Below are positions 6,407 to 52,555 of a stretch of DNA of 64,000 bases, piece after piece (position 1 is the stretch's first letter; every line of letters begins with the position of its first letter). The translations under genes were made by a program, and so were the position numbers. Below the pieces are notes generated by a model. That model was not told the DNA's origin, ran no database searches, and worked only from the letters and a program-made list of their open reading frames with translations. Source of the stretch: a phage; NCBI GenBank assembly GCA_021537435.1, contig GCA_021537435.1_3050.1; one strand, written 5' to 3'.

Positions 6407-8671
6407 TCATAATTTACAGGATGAACAATCTTCAGCTTTTGGAGTTTCTATTTCATAATCATCAGTACCAGAACCATCACGGGTATTATGATAATAGAAA
6501 TTTTTTCCGCCAAAATACCAAAAGTACAAAAGGTCATCAATCATTACAGACATTGGAACCTTTCCTTTTGGAAAAATCTGCGGGTCATAATATGTATTTG
6601 CTGAAGCTGATTGACATACCCATTTAAGCATAATAGCTACCTGCGTAAGATAAGGTTTATTACCTTTCTTAGCTAATTTCCATGTATAATCATATAGGTC
6701 TATGTTATGTTCAATATTGGGCACGACTTGATTAAAGGAACCCTCTTTTGATTCTTTAACCGAGACTGGTCCACGTGGAGGCTCGATACCGTTTGTACTG
6801 TTAGAAACTTGGGAAGATGACTCACATGGCATAAGTGCTGATAATGTGCTATTACGGATGCCAAAGAGCTTAAGGTCTTCCCGCAGCGACGACCAGTCAC
6901 AAACGTATTTTGGAGCTGCGATTTGGTCAATCTTTTTATTGTACCAGTCGATAGGTAGTTCGCCTCGAGACCAACGAGTGTCTGAATAATATTCGCAAGG
7001 TCCTTTTTCTTTGGCGAGCTTAATGGATGCTTTAATGAGTCCATACTGTAATCTCTCAAATAGTTCATGTGTTAAATCGTTAGCATCTTCATAAGAAGCA
7101 AAGTTACTTGCCAGCCAAGCTGCATAGTTAGTAACACCTACACCAAGGTTACGACGCTTTTTAGCTTTTTCTGCTTCAGGAACTGGATATCCTTGGTAAT
7201 CCAAAAGATTATCAAGAGCACGAACTTGAACTTCTGCCAATTCATTAATTTTATCTTGGTCTTGCCAATCGAAGTTATCCAACACAAATGCAGATAACGT
7301 ACACAATCCAATTTCAGCATCAGGGCTATTCACATCATTTGTTGGAATAGCAATTTCACAGCATAAGTTACTCTGACGAATAGGTGCCTTTTCACGAATA
7401 AACGGAGTATAGTTATTCGTATTATCAATGAACTGTACATAAATCCTTGCTGTTCCTGAACGTTCAGTCATGAGCAATTCAAATAGTTCACGGGCTTTAA
7501 TACGCTTTTTACGAATATTAGGGTCTTTTTCTGCCGCTTCGTATAATTCACGGAAACGGTCTTGGTCTTTAAAATAAGAATAATAAAGCTCTCCACCCAT
7601 TTCATGGGGACTGAACAAAGTAATGTAATCGTTCTTTCCAAAACGTTCCATCATCAAATCATTCAGTTGAACACCATAATCCATATGACGAATGCGGTTT
7701 TCTTCTACGCCTTTGTTATTTTTCAAAACGAGAAGATTTTCAACTTCCAAATGCCAAATAGGATAATAAGCAGTAGCAGCGCCGCCACGAATTCCACCCT
7801 GTGAACATGATTTAACTGCAGTCTGAAAATGTTTCCAAAAAGGAATAACACCGGTATGGCGTACTTCACCCATGCCAATCTTAGAACCTTCGGCACGAAT
7901 CATACCAACGTTAATACCAATTCCAGCACGTTTGGAGATATATTCAACAATTGAAGCGGAAGCCTTATTGATAGACTTCAATGAATCTCCTGCCTCAATA
8001 ACAACACATGAACTAAACTGTCGAGTCGGAGTACGGCAACCAGCCATAATAGGAGTTGGCAATGAAATCTGTCGAGTAGATACTGCTTCATAAAAACGGA
8101 TAACATGTTTTAATCTATCAACAGGTTCGTCTTGATGCAATGCCATTCCAATAGCCATAAATGCAAACTGTGGAGTTTCATAAATTTGACCAGTGGTTTT
8201 ATCTTTAACTAAATATTTTTCTTTTAATTGCATCGCCCCGGAATAAGTAAATTCCATATCCCGCTCGTGCTTAATTTTTGATTCTAAAAATGTAATTTCT
8301 TCTGCTGAATATTTTGACAACAATTCAGGGTCGTATTTACCTTCATTTACACAGTAAGAAATATGGTCAATAAATGAACGTGGTTCATACTGCCTGTAAA
8401 CATGCTTACGAAGAGCGAACATTAAGCAGCGTGCAGCTACATATTGGTAATCAGGCTCTTCAACTGAAATAGAATTCGCAGCAGCCTTAATGACAATAGT
8501 CTGAATATCATCAGTTGTCATTCCATCACGGAGATAAGATTTAATATTTTCATATAATTCATAAGGATCTACTGATGTTCCCTCAGCTGCCCAAGATAAA
8601 ACTTTAATAATTTTTTGTGGGTCAAAGCTCTGAGAAACACCACTACTTTTGATAACATTAATTAATTGCAT
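6407..8671 (-). CDS. nrdA: ribonucleotide reductase large subunit
   Basis: 754-aa ORF; ATP-cone N-terminus and class I RNR catalytic motifs (NLCCEI, CESS); matches T4 NrdA length. Confidence 0.9.
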   Translation of the reverse strand: MQLINVIKSSGVSQSFDPQKIIKVLSWAAEGTSVDPYELYENIKSYLRDGMTTDDIQTIVIKAAANSISVEEPDYQYVAARCLMFALRKHVYRQYEPRSFIDHISYCVNEGKYDPELLSKYSAEEITFLESKIKHERDMEFTYSGAMQLKEKYLVKDKTTGQIYETPQFAFMAIGMALHQDEPVDRLKHVIRFYEAVSTRQISLPTPIMAGCRTPTRQFSSCVVIEAGDSLKSINKASASIVEYISKRAGIGINVGMIRAEGSKIGMGEVRHTGVIPFWKHFQTAVKSCSQGGIRGGAATAYYPIWHLEVENLLVLKNNKGVEENRIRHMDYGVQLNDLMMERFGKNDYITLFSPHEMGGELYYSYFKDQDRFRELYEAAEKDPNIRKKRIKARELFELLMTERSGTARIYVQFIDNTNNYTPFIREKAPIRQSNLCCEIAIPTNDVNSPDAEIGLCTLSAFVLDNFDWQDQDKINELAEVQVRALDNLLDYQGYPVPEAEKAKKRRNLGVGVTNYAAWLASNFASYEDANDLTHELFERLQYGLIKASIKLAKEKGPCEYYSDTRWSRGELPIDWYNKKIDQIAAPKYVCDWSSLREDLKLFGIRNSTLSALMPCESSSQVSNSTNGIEPPRGPVSVKESKEGSFNQVVPNIEHNIDLYDYTWKLAKKGNKPYLTQVAIMLKWVCQSASANTYYDPQIFPKGKVPMSVMIDDLLYFWYFGGKNFYYHNTRDGSGTDDYEIETPKAEDCSSCKL

Positions 8672-50156: not shown

Positions 50157-50360
50157 TCACGATTTATCCCCATAGATGTCTCTCATCAATTTAAGCGCTG
50201 AGCGTTCTAATTTCTTTTCTTTCTCAGCACTAATCATTGATTTCATCCATTCTTCTGATTCGTTCTGCATTTCTTTATTTGCTTGTTCAACCCAACCATC
50301 GTCAATATACATTGAGTTTGGTCTATTGAACCATTCAAGCATTTTCTTCAGAACTTTCAT
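50157..50360 (-). CDS. hypothetical protein
   Basis: 67-aa ORF. Confidence 0.4.
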
Positions 50361-50832
50361 TTGTTTTACCTAAAACAACAGTAGGAGCATCATCAAATTC
50401 ATGAATTTTTAGCAAATTTGGATGTAAACTATTCCACACAGAAGAAATAAAGTATGATAAAGCATCTTCACTCGCAATTATAAATTTATTTCCTTTATCT
50501 ATTTTCCAACTATATACTGAATCATACGAATAGAAAGATAAAGGATTATCATTATATTGTTCTGCGCTAACATTAATGTATTCTGATTTAGTAAATGCTT
50601 CAATTGCTCTAAATGGAATATTTGGTACAGTTTCAATAATACCAATCTTTTTAAGTTTTATTTCAGCATCTTCTGGAACTGGCATTGAAACGAAATTTTC
50701 TACGAGATACATTGGGTCACAATAACCCTTATCAATCATTACTGCTACGGTAATTGGAACGTCTTTAGCAAACGACAAACTATTACTGCTAATATACATT
50801 TCAAACAAAATCGCTTCCATAATTTTCCTCAA
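50335..50832 (-). CDS. hypothetical protein
   Basis: 165-aa ORF. Confidence 0.45.
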
Positions 50833-51176
50833 TCACAAGATGTAGATGAACAACTAGAATCACAAGAACTTCCACATGAATCGCCCGTCCATACATGAAC
50901 AGGAACAGGAACATTAGTATCATATGAATCAGAACTAGACTGTGTATTCTGCGTATTAGATGATGTAGTAGGTGTTGACCAACGCCAAGGATTTTTATAA
51001 TATTCTTGGGCTTCTTCATAAGTCATAGTAACTGCTTCTACTGTTCCATCTCCCATATAAACATATTCAACTACAGTTAAAGGGAGGTAGTCGTTTGAAA
51101 TAGGAACTACACCTTCTCCGGGAGTTGTAGAGAAAAAATCCGTAAAGAAACTTTTAAACCAATTAAAGATAAACAT
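50829..51176 (-). CDS. hypothetical protein with Cys/Ser-rich C-terminal tail
   Basis: 115-aa ORF ending ...[19 protein letters not shown]. Confidence 0.45.
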
Positions 51177-51388
51177 TACAAAAAGCCTCTTTGAAATTCG
51201 ACTCTTTGAAATCCACCCCAGTCAGTGTATCGCATTTCAGCATTGAACTCGACTGAACCATCTGCATGCATCATGAATGAATGCGTGACGATATCACAAT
51301 CCCAGCTTTTCATACCCCATTTATCAGAGATAGCTTTATCAAGAACCTTCTGGAGGTCTTCATTTGGTTTAATCCAACGATTTAACAT
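51176..51388 (-). CDS. hypothetical protein
   Basis: 70-aa ORF; early promoter upstream. Confidence 0.45.
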   Translation of the reverse strand: MLNRWIKPNEDLQKVLDKAISDKWGMKSWDCDIVTHSFMMHADGSVEFNAEMRYTDWGGFQRVEFQRGFL

Positions 51389-51414
51389 AGTGCTTTCCTC
51401 TATAAGATAATTCT

Positions 51415-51443
51415 ATTATACCATACTTGTTTTGGAAAGTAAA
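51415..51443 (-). promoter_or_regulatory. early promoter
   Basis: rc TTTACT, 17 nt, TATAAT. Confidence 0.5.
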
Positions 51444-51485
51444 CCGGTAAAATGAAAAAGGACTCCCGAAGGAGTCCTTGAATTA

Positions 51486-51722
51486 TTAACCACCTATTTC
51501 TGTAGGCGTAAACATTGCAGCATTCTTAGTTTTCCAAGTTGCTGCATCGGAAACTACATCAGAATAAGCTGCTTTTTCTGACGGAAAGATTTGATAATGA
51601 GAATCTGCAATACGGTGTTCATTTGAATATACATCAAATGCTACAGAAACTTCCATACCTTTAACTTCTTTGCCTTCACCTGCTGGATGAGTAAAGGTCT
51701 TGATGTTAACGAAACCACCCAT
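51486..51722 (-). CDS. soc: small outer capsid protein Soc
   Basis: 78-aa ORF ...VNIKTF...QIFPSEKAAYS...; minus-strand TATAAATA late promoter upstream. Confidence 0.8.
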   Translation of the reverse strand: MGGFVNIKTFTHPAGEGKEVKGMEVSVAFDVYSNEHRIADSHYQIFPSEKAAYSDVVSDAATWKTKNAAMFTPTEIGG

Positions 51723-51753
51723 AATAAACTCCTTTATTGTTTAATTACAGGTG

Positions 51754-51761
51754 TATTTATA
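51754..51761 (-). promoter_or_regulatory. late promoter TATAAATA (minus strand) upstream of soc
   Basis: rc TATAAATA about 32 nt upstream of soc start, in the 56-soc spacer. Confidence 0.6.
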
Positions 51762-51764
51762 TCA

Positions 51765-52283
51765 TCAATAACCTCGGTCTTGACGAGCGAAGTTTTCAGC
51801 ATTTTTCAGATAATAAAGTTTAAAGATTTCTTCAGCCGTAAGACCGAGACCTTGGAACATGTTCAGAACGAAATGAAGAATATCAATCATTTCGAATTTA
51901 ATTTCCAACTGGTCTTGTGGAGATAAGTCAGTAATCAGAGTTTCACGACGTTCACCGTGTTGCGACTTCCACGGCTTCCATACAGCAGATGCATCTTTTT
52001 CGCCATTGCTCATACCACCAAGAGAAGTCAGAAGTTCGCGGAATTCATCATCAATATAATCTTTCTGATTACGCAACCAATCAACAACTTCACCTGCAGT
52101 AGCCAAATCATCAGGATGACGGTTATATTCAGGTTTATCTTTAGCTAAACGAACCTGCAGAGATTTCTGCATATCAAGCATAACCTGCAGCGGGTCTTTT
52201 TCATCACCGAGAATATCCCAGTATTCATTTTGAGCTTTATCAGCACCTTCGATCAGTTGACTACATTCGTTAAAGTATGCCAT
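51765..52283 (-). CDS. 56: dCTPase/dUTPase gp56
   Basis: start MAYFNECSQLIEGADKAQNEYWDILGDEKDPLQVMLDMQ...; track ORF extended upstream. Confidence 0.85.
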   Translation of the reverse strand: MAYFNECSQLIEGADKAQNEYWDILGDEKDPLQVMLDMQKSLQVRLAKDKPEYNRHPDDLATAGEVVDWLRNQKDYIDDEFRELLTSLGGMSNGEKDASAVWKPWKSQHGERRETLITDLSPQDQLEIKFEMIDILHFVLNMFQGLGLTAEEIFKLYYLKNAENFARQDRGY

Positions 52284-52354: not shown

Positions 52355-52555
52355 ATGGTACAAAAATTAATGGCACTTGTTAATGCCATAAAAGGTAATA
52401 AAAAACGTATAGCTTTTACTATTTCTGCTATGGTAGGAATTTTACTCTGGAATTTTGTTTTATCACCAATTGCTATTGCTCATGGTGTTAATATTCCAGT
52501 AATTACTCTTGATACATTCGTAGATTTAGCATTTGCTTTGGTTGGGTTAATTTAA
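52355..52555 (+). CDS. small membrane protein (66 aa) on the opposite strand
   Basis: strong RBS AAGGAGG seven nt before ATG; two hydrophobic helices. Confidence 0.5.
   Translation: MVQKLMALVNAIKGNKKRIAFTISAMVGILLWNFVLSPIAIAHGVNIPVITLDTFVDLAFALVGLI

What the first reader, a model, noticed from the sequence alone, without database searches (positions are those of the whole stretch)
50829..51176. Small protein with a Cys/Ser-rich C-terminal tail
The 115-aa ORF ends ...[19 protein letters not shown], a low-complexity Cys/Ser/Asp tail that could bind metal or be a modification substrate. Function is unknown and nothing similar is recognisable elsewhere in the window.
Basis: seen in the sequence. 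Interest (0 to 1): 0.4.

Follow-up and report, generated by a model that had tools for sequence, protein, structure and literature searches.

The report
T4 mrh.1: conserved Cys-Asp tail
The ORF is the T4-type early gene mrh.1, a catalogued protein of unknown function, and its Cys/Ser/Asp tail is a strongly conserved C-terminal motif with two invariant cysteines whose chemistry has never been tested.

Summary
Window 50829..51176 (-) encodes a 115-aa protein ending [19 protein letters not shown]. It is the orthologue (97-98% identical) of phage T4 gene mrh.1 (UniProt P20706; Pfam DUF7206; phrog_2031), annotated "hypothetical" everywhere.

The tail is a family signature, not a random low-complexity stretch or a linker:
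- In 113 full-length homologue clusters from T4-like phages of Enterobacterales, the penultimate residue is always Cys (C-D 109, C-E 2, C-N 2).
- Every member has at least two Cys in the last 25 residues, against 0.1% Cys elsewhere.
- No member has K, R or H in the last 20 residues.
- T4-type proteins have four Cys; the two extra ones align with Tyr in other genera.

The protein is acidic and mostly disordered. It has an N-terminal amphipathic helix resembling the MinD and MreB membrane-targeting helices, a small beta-hairpin core, and a floppy tail. In T4 it is transcribed early, non-essential on K-12, and mildly fitness-relevant ("Semi-Fit") in a knock-down screen. It sits next to the sigma32-linked genes srh and mrh.

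Best guess (about 0.3): a membrane-tethered protein whose Cys-Asp dyads bind a metal ion or a host metal/thiol centre. The function remains unproven. Interest is moderate.

The parts
50829..51176 (-). mrh.1 CDS (115 aa plus TGA stop), orthologue of T4 Mrh.1 / Pfam DUF7206 / phrog_2031
   Evidence: ORF. DUF7206 E=6e-30, full length; phrog_2031 E=4e-33. 97-98% identical to T4 and pSs-1 proteins.
51186..51189 (-). Shine-Dalgarno GAGG, 9 nt before the mrh.1 ATG. The ATG overlaps the mrh.2 stop (TAATG), which suggests translational coupling.
   Evidence: Sequence. The same arrangement is conserved in related loci.
51132..51176 (-). Residues 1-15, N-terminal amphipathic helix ([15 protein letters not shown]; family consensus M-I-x-W-L-K-N-L-F-K), a putative membrane-targeting or partner-binding helix
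   Evidence: AF2 helix 3-15. Hydrophobic moment 0.66; family mean 0.68 against 0.40+-0.15 for other window ORF N-termini. E. coli MinD ...GFLKRLFGG and MreB MLKKFRGMF verified.
51099..51125 (-). Residues 18-26, conserved TPGEGVVPI motif
   Evidence: Nearly invariant P19, G, P in alignments A1 and A2.
50994..51077 (-). Residues 34-61, the only confidently folded part: a beta-hairpin carrying the [13 protein letters not shown] motif, then a short helix
   Evidence: AF2 E34-40, E46-52, H53-61 with pLDDT 76-85. Most conserved island of the family; Y40, G42, G44 invariant.
50889..50993 (-). Residues 62-96, a poorly conserved, indel-rich Ser/Thr/Asn/Gln-rich disordered linker. It is a shortened version of a longer helical/hydrophobic segment found in other genera.
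   Evidence: pLDDT 43-50. Mean weighted relative entropy 0.58 against 2-3.6 for the motifs. Insertion variant P0003.
50832..50888 (-). Residues 97-115, the C-terminal tail [19 protein letters not shown]. Family-conserved dyads are C105-D106 (50859..50864) and C114-D115 (50832..50837). C101 (50874..50876) and C109 (50850..50852) are extras specific to the T4 group.
   Evidence: Penultimate Cys in 113/113; at least 2 Cys in the last 25 aa in 113/113; no K/R/H in the last 20 aa. Synonymous variation within identical tails. Disordered in both AF2 models.
51415..51443 (-). Sigma70-type promoter-like site (TTTACT-17-TATAAT with extended -10 TG) upstream of mrh.2 and mrh.1; probably the early promoter
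   Evidence: Best-scoring site in the scan, 10/12 matches. T4 mrh.1 mRNA is classed 'early' (PMC9697503 supplement).
51458..51479 (-). Intrinsic-terminator-like hairpin after soc that separates soc from the mrh.2-mrh.1 unit
   Evidence: 9-bp stem with 5 GC pairs, followed by a T-run.
51176..51388 (-). mrh.2 (70 aa; phrog_1873; Pfam Phage_T4_Y01J in relatives), the usual upstream, translationally coupled neighbour
   Evidence: Absent in 4 of 25 related loci, so it is not an obligate partner.
50335..50820 (-). mrh (Pfam T4_MRH), the downstream neighbour. Its SD GAGGA (50826..50830) overlaps the mrh.1 stop codon.
   Evidence: An Mrh-family gene lies just downstream of mrh.1 in 24/25 loci.
50157..50360 (-). 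srh (annotated 'decoy of host sigma32'). In non-T4 genera it follows mrh.1 directly with overlapping stop and start.

Best explanation
Window 50829..51176 (-) is the T4-type early gene mrh.1. Its product is a small, acidic (pI about 4), largely disordered cytoplasmic protein built from three conserved short modules joined by variable linkers. Module 1 is an N-terminal amphipathic helix (M-I-x-W-L-K-N-L-F) that most likely parks the protein on the inner face of the cytoplasmic membrane or on a partner. Module 2 is a small beta-hairpin carrying YMGDG. Module 3 is a flexible, purely anionic Ser/Asp/Gly tail with two invariant 'S-C-D' dyads, the second placed at the very C-terminus (...S-C-D-COOH). 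I infer that the tail is the working end. Its thiolates, the adjacent Asp carboxylates and the free terminal carboxylate would act as ligands for a metal ion. The tail would then either chelate a free ion (within one chain, or between chains in a dimer) or reach into a metal or thiol centre of a host protein and block it, much as thiol-plus-carboxylate inhibitors do in zinc enzymes. Shown here: gene identity, architecture, motif conservation, and (from T4 studies) early transcription and a mild fitness effect. Inferred: membrane tethering, metal ligation and any host target.
For: Identity: DUF7206 E=6e-30 over the full length and phrog_2031; 97-98% identity to T4 and pSs-1 Mrh.1; conserved order 56-soc-mrh.2-mrh.1-(srh)-mrh.

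Expression: SD plus translational coupling. T4 mRNA is classed 'early' (PMC9697503 supplement). CRISPRi-ART translational knock-down gives 'Semi-Fit' (0.79, p=0.069) while mrh.2, mrh, soc and srh are 'Not Fit' (PMC11879866 supplement).

Tail is selected: penultimate Cys in 113/113; C-D/E/N end in 113/113; at least 2 Cys in the last 25 aa in 113/113 against 0.1% Cys elsewhere; the first conserved Cys is followed by Asp in 97/113; the Cys-Cys spacer is a variable Ser/Gly stretch of 4-12 residues; no K/R/H in the last 20 aa. Identical tails differ at synonymous sites (TGT/TGC, TCN/AGY, GAT/GAC). The tail is one of three conservation islands (2.78 against 0.58 for the linker).

Why this points to metal ligation: conserved Asp after each Cys and a fixed distance to the free carboxylate are what ligand dyads would need. 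A bare disulfide pair would not need them.

Disorder: pLDDT of about 45-53 for the tail in two AF2 models.

N-terminal helix: hydrophobic moment averages 0.68 against 0.40+-0.15 for control N-termini, and is higher than the verified MinD (0.48) and MreB (0.58) membrane-targeting helices. The sequence pattern W-L-K-N-L-F resembles MinD F-L-K-R-L-F. No TM segment (maximum KD19 0.84).
Against: There is no direct evidence of metal binding, membrane association or any partner. Most members have only two Cys, no His and no CxxC, so a classical tetrahedral Zn site would need the Asp residues or dimerisation. Ser, at 46% of the tail, is itself conserved and is not explained by metal ligation. The two extra T4 Cys align with Tyr in other genera, and Tyr is not a soft-metal ligand, which hints at a role where Tyr and Cys are interchangeable (packing contacts or nucleophiles). 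The gene is dispensable on E. coli K-12, with transposon hits at 31/31 TA sites (bioRxiv 10.1101/2025.11.20.689424 supplement). The CRISPRi-ART effect is marginal (p=0.069). The protein was not detected in the T4 proteome, although that is expected because its tryptic peptides are 8, 53, 4 and 48 aa.
Confidence: 0.3

Rival explanations
1. Redox tail. The two invariant Cys on a flexible C-terminal arm form a reversible intramolecular disulfide and exchange with thioredoxin or glutaredoxin (host or T4 NrdC). The tail would act as a decoy substrate or an electron shuttle, like the mobile C-terminal Cys pair of class Ia ribonucleotide reductase R1.
For: There is an even number of Cys (2 in 107/113, 4 in the T4 group) and a flexible Ser/Gly spacer of 4-12 residues that would allow loop closure. 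The tail is disordered. The window's own NrdA ends ...EDCSSCKL, a Cys pair on an acidic Ser-containing C-terminal tail. That R1 tail cysteines shuttle reducing equivalents is established knowledge, not tested here.
Against: A disulfide role does not explain the near-invariant Asp after each Cys, the strict penultimate position of the last Cys, or the conserved Ser/Tyr pattern. Mrh.1 carries no catalytic domain that would need re-reduction. There is no sequence similarity to NrdA beyond composition.
Confidence: 0.15
2. Non-chemical linear motif or decoy. The tail is a multivalent short linear motif (repeats of S-S-[Y/C]-D-S-G) that binds a host or phage partner. Alternatively it is a hydroxyl/thiol-rich decoy that soaks up a host enzyme modifying Ser/Tyr/Cys side chains (kinase, nucleotidyl- or ADP-ribosyl-transferase). 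In either case the Cys act only as contact residues or nucleophiles.
For: The tail reads as degenerate repeats (SSYDSGS / SYSSCDSGS / SSCD). About 65% of its residues are nucleophilic (Ser, Tyr, Cys, Thr) and the rest are Asp or Gly. Tyr and Cys interchange between genera. The whole protein looks like three linear motifs on a disordered chain. Neighbouring genes are host-takeover factors, including the ADP-ribosyltransferases ModA and ModB.
Against: Cys is rarely invariant for simple packing contacts, and no K/R/H or hydrophobic anchor is present. No partner or modifying enzyme is known. T4 Alt and Mod enzymes are Arg-specific (established knowledge).
Confidence: 0.2
3. RiPP-like precursor. 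The Cys/Ser/Asp tail is a core peptide that is post-translationally cyclised (lanthionine, thiazole/oxazole or Cys-Asp thioether).
For: There is a weak match of residues 97-111 to the FxLD lanthipeptide precursor model TIGR04363 (E=0.002, 18.1 bits). The composition resembles microcin B17, lanthipeptide and ranthipeptide cores (from memory).
Against: The score is below the curated cutoff of 30 bits. The sequence has no FxLD leader motif. The neighbours are soc, mrh.2, mrh and srh, with no synthetase, cyclodehydratase or RiPP radical-SAM enzyme. The same tail is kept in about 800 phages with different hosts.
Confidence: 0.03
4. Nothing special. The ORF is untranslated, or the tail is an ordinary low-complexity stretch drifting without function.
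For: The protein was not detected in the T4 time-resolved proteome. The gene is non-essential on K-12.
Against: Non-detection is expected from the tryptic peptide sizes of 8, 53, 4 and 48 aa. An SD and translational coupling are conserved. The motif is kept in 113/113 divergent homologues with synonymous variation. mrh.1 stays at about 97% identity while the flanking soc and mrh.2 alleles drop to 49-59%. The knock-down is Semi-Fit.
Confidence: 0.02

Closest known systems
Phage T4 Mrh.1 (gene mrh.1, T4p027, NP_049642, UniProt P20706); Pfam PF23836 DUF7206; PHROG phrog_2031
   Same: Same gene. It is 97% identical, has the same length class (113 against 115 aa), an identical 18-residue tail, the same position between mrh.2 and mrh, and a full-length HMM match.
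   Different: The window protein has a 2-residue insertion (VPVPVHVW against VPVHVW) and T in place of A at WTGD. It is closest to the Shigella phage pSs-1 lineage. No function has been assigned to the family anywhere.
Membrane-targeting amphipathic helices of E. coli MinD (C-terminal ...KKGFLKRLFGG) and MreB (N-terminal MLKKFRGMF)
   Same: It is a short terminal helix of about 9 residues with a [aromatic]-L-K-x-L-F pattern and an equal or higher hydrophobic moment (0.68 against 0.48 and 0.58).
   Different: This is an analogy of pattern only, with no homology. Membrane binding of Mrh.1 is untested, and the helix could equally be a protein-binding peptide.
Phage lambda CIII and Bacillus SpoVM, small amphipathic-helix, membrane-associated inhibitors/substrates of the Zn-protease FtsH (PMC1838920)
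   Same: Mrh.1 is also a small protein with an amphipathic helix. CIII is phage-encoded and SpoVM is a Bacillus sporulation peptide. CIII stabilises sigma32, and mrh.1 sits beside the sigma32-linked genes srh and mrh in 21-24 of 25 loci.
   Different: No sequence similarity was detected; Pfam gives only DUF7206. CIII's active helix is internal (residues 14-37) and CIII has no Cys-Asp tail. FtsH inhibition by Mrh.1 is pure hypothesis.
Mobile C-terminal Cys pair of class Ia ribonucleotide reductase R1 (window NrdA, 6407..8671, ends EDCSSCKL)
   Same: Both carry a Cys pair on an acidic, Ser-containing, presumably flexible extreme C-terminus.
   Different: NrdA has CxxC two residues from the end on a 754-aa enzyme. 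Mrh.1 has C-x(4-12)-C with the last Cys penultimate, each Cys followed by Asp, and no enzyme domain.
Thiol-plus-carboxylate ligands of zinc enzymes (the 'cysteine switch' PRCGxPD of pro-matrix-metalloproteinases; captopril/thiorphan-type inhibitors). Established chemistry, cited from memory.
   Same: A thiol sits next to one or two carboxylates (...Cys-Asp-COOH) on a flexible chain. That is the minimal pharmacophore by which such molecules ligate a catalytic Zn.
   Different: This is a purely chemical analogy. No sequence relation, target or binding data exist.

Membership tests
Pfam DUF7206 / T4 Mrh.1 family | Full-length match to the family HMM above the gathering score | tested here: met
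   104.4 bits against a cutoff of 25.6, residues 3-115 on profile positions 1-107/107. phrog_2031 E=4e-33.
Pfam DUF7206 / T4 Mrh.1 family | N-terminal M-[IF]-x-[WF]-[LI]-K-x-[LF]-F motif and central [YW]-x-Y-x-G-D-G motif | tested here: met
   [11 protein letters not shown] and EYVYMGDG are present. Y40, G42 and G44 are invariant; K8, F15 and P19 are nearly invariant.
Pfam DUF7206 / T4 Mrh.1 family | C-terminus ending in Cys-[Asp/Glu/Asn], with a second Cys 4-12 residues upstream in a Ser/Asp/Gly tail (signature derived here) | tested here: met
   The window protein ends ...[13 protein letters not shown]. The rule holds in 113/113 members.
Pfam DUF7206 / T4 Mrh.1 family | Genomic position downstream of 56-soc(-mrh.2) and upstream of srh/mrh in a Tevenvirinae genome | tested here: met
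Lanthipeptide precursor, FxLD family (TIGR04363) | Score at or above the curated cutoff | tested here: not met
   18.1 bits against a cutoff of 30. Only the Cys/Ser tail aligns.
Lanthipeptide precursor, FxLD family (TIGR04363) | Adjacent lanthipeptide synthetase or other RiPP maturase | tested here: not met
   The flanking genes are soc, mrh.2, mrh, srh, modA.x and the Mod ARTs. The rest of the window was not scanned family by family.
Classical zinc finger / zinc ribbon / metallothionein | Four Cys/His ligands arranged as CxxC (or CxC) pairs | tested here: not met
   There is no CxxC, CxC or His in the tail. 107/113 members have only two Cys, spaced 4-12 apart.
Generic metal-binding tail (functional class, not a family) | Measured metal occupancy or affinity | not testable with these tools
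   Needs ICP-MS or native MS of the purified protein.
Membrane-targeting amphipathic helix (MinD/MreB type) | Short terminal helix with a high hydrophobic moment and a basic/hydrophobic pattern | tested here: met
   Hydrophobic moment 0.66 (window) and 0.68 (family mean), against MinD 0.48, MreB 0.58 and window controls 0.40+-0.15. AF2 helix 3-15.
Membrane-targeting amphipathic helix (MinD/MreB type) | Demonstrated membrane localisation | not testable with these tools
   Needs a GFP fusion or fractionation.
Lambda CIII / SpoVM-type FtsH inhibitors | Sequence homology to CIII or SpoVM | tested here: not met
   The Pfam scan gives only DUF7206. The resemblance is limited to 'small protein with an amphipathic helix'.
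Lambda CIII / SpoVM-type FtsH inhibitors | Inhibition of FtsH / stabilisation of sigma32 | not testable with these tools
   Only contextual evidence: srh and mrh are adjacent.
Secreted / membrane-spanning protein | Signal peptide or hydrophobic TM segment | tested here: not met
   The maximum Kyte-Doolittle 19-residue mean is 0.84 (below the usual threshold of about 1.6). The N-terminus is interrupted by K8 and D13.

The most novel reading that the evidence does not exclude
Mrh.1 is a new kind of phage-encoded protease or metallo-enzyme inhibitor. In this reading the N-terminal amphipathic helix docks it at the inner membrane, and its long disordered tail is fed into the membrane Zn-protease FtsH (or another membrane-proximal metal enzyme). 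The terminal thiol/carboxylate 'Cys-Asp-COOH' warhead then ligates the catalytic metal. This would stabilise sigma32 and act together with the adjacent srh ('sigma32 decoy') and mrh genes as a T-even heat-shock-control module.
Probability: 0.08. Interest if true: 0.75.

Novelty: already known. Interest (0 to 1): 0.38.

Why it matters
The gene itself is not new. It is T4 mrh.1, catalogued for decades and now Pfam DUF7206. What the analysis adds is a precise, testable signature: two invariant Cys-Asp dyads at the free C-terminus of a disordered, probably membrane-tethered early protein. That signature is kept in roughly 800 or more cultured T4-like phages of Enterobacterales. mrh.1 is also one of only five T4 genes of purely unknown function that scored Semi-Fit in a genome-wide knock-down screen, and it is tightly linked to the poorly understood sigma32-related genes srh and mrh. 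If the tail proves to be a metal or thiol warhead against a host enzyme, it would give a function to a conserved piece of T4 'dark matter' and might reveal a new inhibitor chemistry. If it does not, this remains one more small accessory protein.

Tried and rejected
- **Sequence search of PDB chains.** The whole protein and a tail-only profile both gave no hits at E<=10.
- **AF2 and Foldseek.** Two AF2 models (T4-type and typical 2-Cys type) had mean pLDDT of about 59. Foldseek against the PDB gave a best E of 1.5, which is not meaningful. The viral structure library was not searched because the model is too disordered.
- **HHpred-style database search.** Pfam, NCBIfam and PHROGs hmmscan gave only DUF7206, phrog_2031 and a sub-threshold lanthipeptide hit.
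- **Literature.** 'mrh.1' and 'DUF7206' appear in no main text. Information came only from supplements.
- **Mrh.2 as an obligate partner.** Rejected, because it is absent from 4 of 25 loci.
- **Secreted protein with a periplasmic disulfide.** Rejected, because there is no signal peptide or TM segment.
- **Proteome non-detection as evidence against translation.** Rejected, because the protein yields no MS-friendly tryptic peptides.
- **Conservation of the terminal Asp codon caused by the overlapping SD of mrh.** Rejected, because other genera have a different downstream gene and junction but the same C-D end.
- **Met-rich hairpin compensating for Cys number** (3 Met with 2 Cys, against 1 Met with 4 Cys). 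This rests on a single lineage, so it carries no statistical weight.
Full report
**1. Observation**

The ORF exists as described. It runs ATG to TGA at 50829..51176 on the minus strand and encodes 115 aa ending ...[19 protein letters not shown]. A GAGG Shine-Dalgarno lies 9 nt upstream, and the start codon overlaps the stop of the preceding gene (TAATG). The tail has 4 Cys, 8 Ser and 3 Asp in 19 residues. With the window's own amino-acid usage, such a stretch has probability 2e-10, so about 4e-6 are expected over all window ORFs. No other ORF comes close. The only other C-terminal Cys pair in the window belongs to ribonucleotide reductase NrdA (6407..8671...EDCSSCKL).

**2. Identity**

The window is a Tequatrovirus. 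The closest record is Shigella phage pSs-1, at 98% over the 1.5 kb around the ORF. On the minus strand the local gene order is:
- 56 (dCTPase)
- soc
- mrh.2
- this ORF
- mrh
- srh

This matches T4, RB32 and pSs-1. The ORF is the orthologue of T4 mrh.1 (NP_049642, UniProt P20706). Identity is 97-98%, and the 18-residue tail is identical in T4. It matches Pfam DUF7206 over its whole length (104 bits against a cutoff of 25.6) and phrog_2031, both of unknown function. Every record annotates it as hypothetical, and no paper in the library names mrh.1 or DUF7206 in its text.

**3. The family and its tail**

A single-sequence search of 5.8 billion proteins and an exhaustive HMMER scan of 1.84 billion representatives each found only about ten relatives. 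A profile of these retrieved 144 clusters, nearly all carrying PF23836. Judging from the named records, they belong to T4-like phages of Escherichia, Shigella, Salmonella, Yersinia, Klebsiella, Enterobacter, Citrobacter, Serratia, Erwinia, Kosakonia and Edwardsiella. That is roughly 800 or more cultured genomes.

In 113 full-length members:
- The penultimate residue is Cys in all (C-D 109, C-E 2, C-N 2).
- All have at least two Cys in the last 25 residues. 107 have exactly two, and the T4 group has four.
- Cys makes up 0.1% of the rest of the protein.
- The last two Cys are separated by a Ser/Gly spacer of 4-12 residues, most often 6.
- The upstream Cys is followed by Asp in 97 of 113.
- The last 20 residues are S 46%, D 17%, G 14%, C 10% and Y 8%.

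No member has Lys, Arg or His in the last 20 residues. The consensus is ...S-S-Y-D-S-G-S-S-C-D-S-G-x-S-x-S-C-D-COOH. The two extra T4 Cys align with Tyr in other genera, a one-base codon change. Which of C105 or C109 matches the family's upstream Cys depends on the alignment (A1 against A2). C105-D106 fits the 'S-C-D' dyad.

Tails with identical amino acids differ at synonymous sites and use both Ser codon families at fixed positions, so selection acts on the protein. Conservation along the protein forms three islands. Weighted relative entropy is 2.0 for the N-terminus, 3.6 for the hairpin motif and 2.8 for the tail, against 0.6 for the indel-rich middle.

**4. Architecture**

Two AlphaFold2 runs with alignments of 66 and 67 sequences agree, one for the window protein and one for a typical two-Cys member. 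Each shows:
- an N-terminal helix
- a beta-hairpin carrying EYVYMGDG, followed by a helix
- a disordered remainder that includes the tail

For the window protein, pLDDT reaches 76-85 only for residues 31-60. Mean pLDDT is about 59 in both runs. Foldseek and PDB sequence searches gave nothing. The protein is acidic (pI 4.05) and has no TM segment or signal peptide.

The first nine residues follow M-I-x-W-L-K-N-L-F and have a high helical hydrophobic moment. The family mean is 0.68, against 0.40+-0.15 for other window ORF N-termini. I verified the E. coli K-12 MinD C-terminus (...KKGFLKRLFGG, 0.48) and the MreB N-terminus (MLKKFRGMF, 0.58) from the genome. The pattern [W/F]-L-K-x-L-F is shared with MinD. 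This makes peripheral membrane tethering plausible but does not show it.

**5. Expression and phenotype (T4 literature, supplements only)**

- **Transcription.** mrh.1 mRNA is classed early. The protein class is 'NA' (not detected), while Mrh.2 and Mrh are detected (PMC9697503).
- **Why non-detection is uninformative.** Trypsin gives peptides of 8, 53, 4 and 48-50 residues.
- **Promoter.** A promoter-like site (TTTACT-17-TATAAT with TG) follows the soc terminator and precedes mrh.2.
- **Knock-down.** In the CRISPRi-ART dCas13d screen mrh.1 is 'Semi-Fit' (0.79, p=0.069). It is one of five Semi-Fit T4 genes of purely unknown function, while mrh.2, mrh, soc and srh are 'Not Fit' (PMC11879866).
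- **Essentiality.** HIDEN-SEQ transposon mapping hit 31 of 31 TA sites, so the gene is non-essential on K-12 (bioRxiv 10.1101/2025.11.20.689424). This fits with viable deletions in the 39-56 region (PMC6071114).

**6. Context**

mrh.2 is the usual upstream, translationally coupled neighbour, but it is missing from 4 of 25 loci, so it is not obligate. An Mrh-family gene lies just downstream in 24 of 25 loci. In the non-T4 genera srh follows mrh.1 directly with overlapping stop and start codons. The ancestral order appears to be soc - mrh.2 - mrh.1 - srh - x - mrh. The sigma32-related annotations of srh ('decoy of host sigma32') and mrh come from the database records; I did not test them. Within Tequatrovirus, mrh.1 stays at about 97% identity while the soc and mrh.2 alleles drop to 49-59%.

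**7. Mechanism (inference)**

Four features need explaining: an invariant thiol pair, an Asp after each thiol, a fixed position next to the free carboxylate, and a flexible spacer of variable length. Together they are most simply read as ligand dyads for a metal ion or for a metal or thiol centre on a partner. I give this about 0.3.

The rivals are:
- A Trx/Grx-type redox tail (0.15). This would not need the Asp residues or the terminal position.
- A non-chemical linear motif or a decoy for a side-chain-modifying enzyme (0.2). This is favoured by the Ser dominance and the Tyr/Cys interchange.
- A RiPP-like core (0.03). The lanthipeptide hit is sub-threshold and no maturase is nearby.
- 'Nothing' (0.02). 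Conservation contradicts this.

The remaining probability is for mechanisms I have not imagined.

The most novel reading still open combines three facts. First, the helix resembles membrane-targeting helices. Second, lambda CIII and SpoVM are amphipathic, membrane-associated FtsH inhibitors, and CIII stabilises sigma32 (PMC1838920). Third, mrh.1 is linked to srh and mrh. Together they suggest a thiol/carboxylate 'warhead' aimed at FtsH or another membrane metallo-enzyme. I put this at about 0.08.

**8. Verdict**

The entity is already catalogued (T4 mrh.1 / DUF7206) but functionally blank. Interest is moderate: this is a sharply defined, testable motif in a conserved, mildly fitness-relevant T4 early gene, not a demonstrated new mechanism.

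Noticed in passing
window 6407..8671 (-): The 754-aa ribonucleotide reductase large subunit (ATP-cone + RNR domains) ends ...KAEDCSSCKL. It is the only other ORF in the window with a Cys pair at the extreme C-terminus, presumably the mobile redox tail known from class Ia R1.
   Followed up: partly
window 51176..51722 (-) compared with L002, L003, L007-L012: There is local mosaicism in Tequatrovirus. mrh.1 stays at about 97% identity across phages, while the adjacent soc and mrh.2 fall into two allele classes (49-59% against 92-100% identity to the window).
   Followed up: partly
window 51722..51765 against T4 (L003 3107..3781): T4 carries the homing endonuclease segF between soc and gene 56. 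The window, like pSs-1 and RB32, has no segF, and 56 abuts soc.
   Followed up: no
window 52355..52555 (+): A 66-aa ORF sits on the opposite strand between gene 56 and primase gene 61. It is very hydrophobic (…ISAMVGILLWNFVLSPIAIAHG…LAFALVGLI) and is annotated as hypothetical in pSs-1 (gp45) and RB32 (ORF030w). It is possibly a small membrane protein in an otherwise minus-strand block.
   Followed up: no
window 50818..50832 (-): the ORF listing starts mrh at a TTG (50832) that overlaps mrh.1. The annotated start in relatives is the ATG at 50820, and its SD GAGGA (50826..50830) overlaps the mrh.1 TGA stop.
   Followed up: yes
P0003 (Escherichia phage 235Ecol030PP, 164 aa): This Tequatrovirus variant of Mrh.1 carries a ~50-aa insertion (…AGNVGAGALPLNSKKLKEHLDSRR…DTAPIITATAVSSW). 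The insertion is homologous to the middle segment of Dhakavirus- and Mosigvirus-type proteins, while the four-Cys T4 tail is kept. The standard T4 protein therefore looks like a deletion derivative, or this variant is a recombinant.
   Followed up: partly
P0005 (phage ERS-1, 141 aa) and L012 2216..2428: Some records carry apparently frameshifted or N-terminally truncated mrh.1 copies. P0005 switches into the alternative frame after residue 61, and in L012 the family motif and tail lie in a 70-aa ORF that starts at an internal Met. These are either sequencing errors or occasional loss of the gene.
   Followed up: no
L019 (IMGVR_UViG_2974666281), L022/L023, L025: In the most divergent loci mrh.1 follows soc without an mrh.2 homologue, and in L019 no Mrh or Srh homologue was detected within 3 kb. 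mrh.1 is therefore more widely kept than its neighbours.
   Followed up: partly
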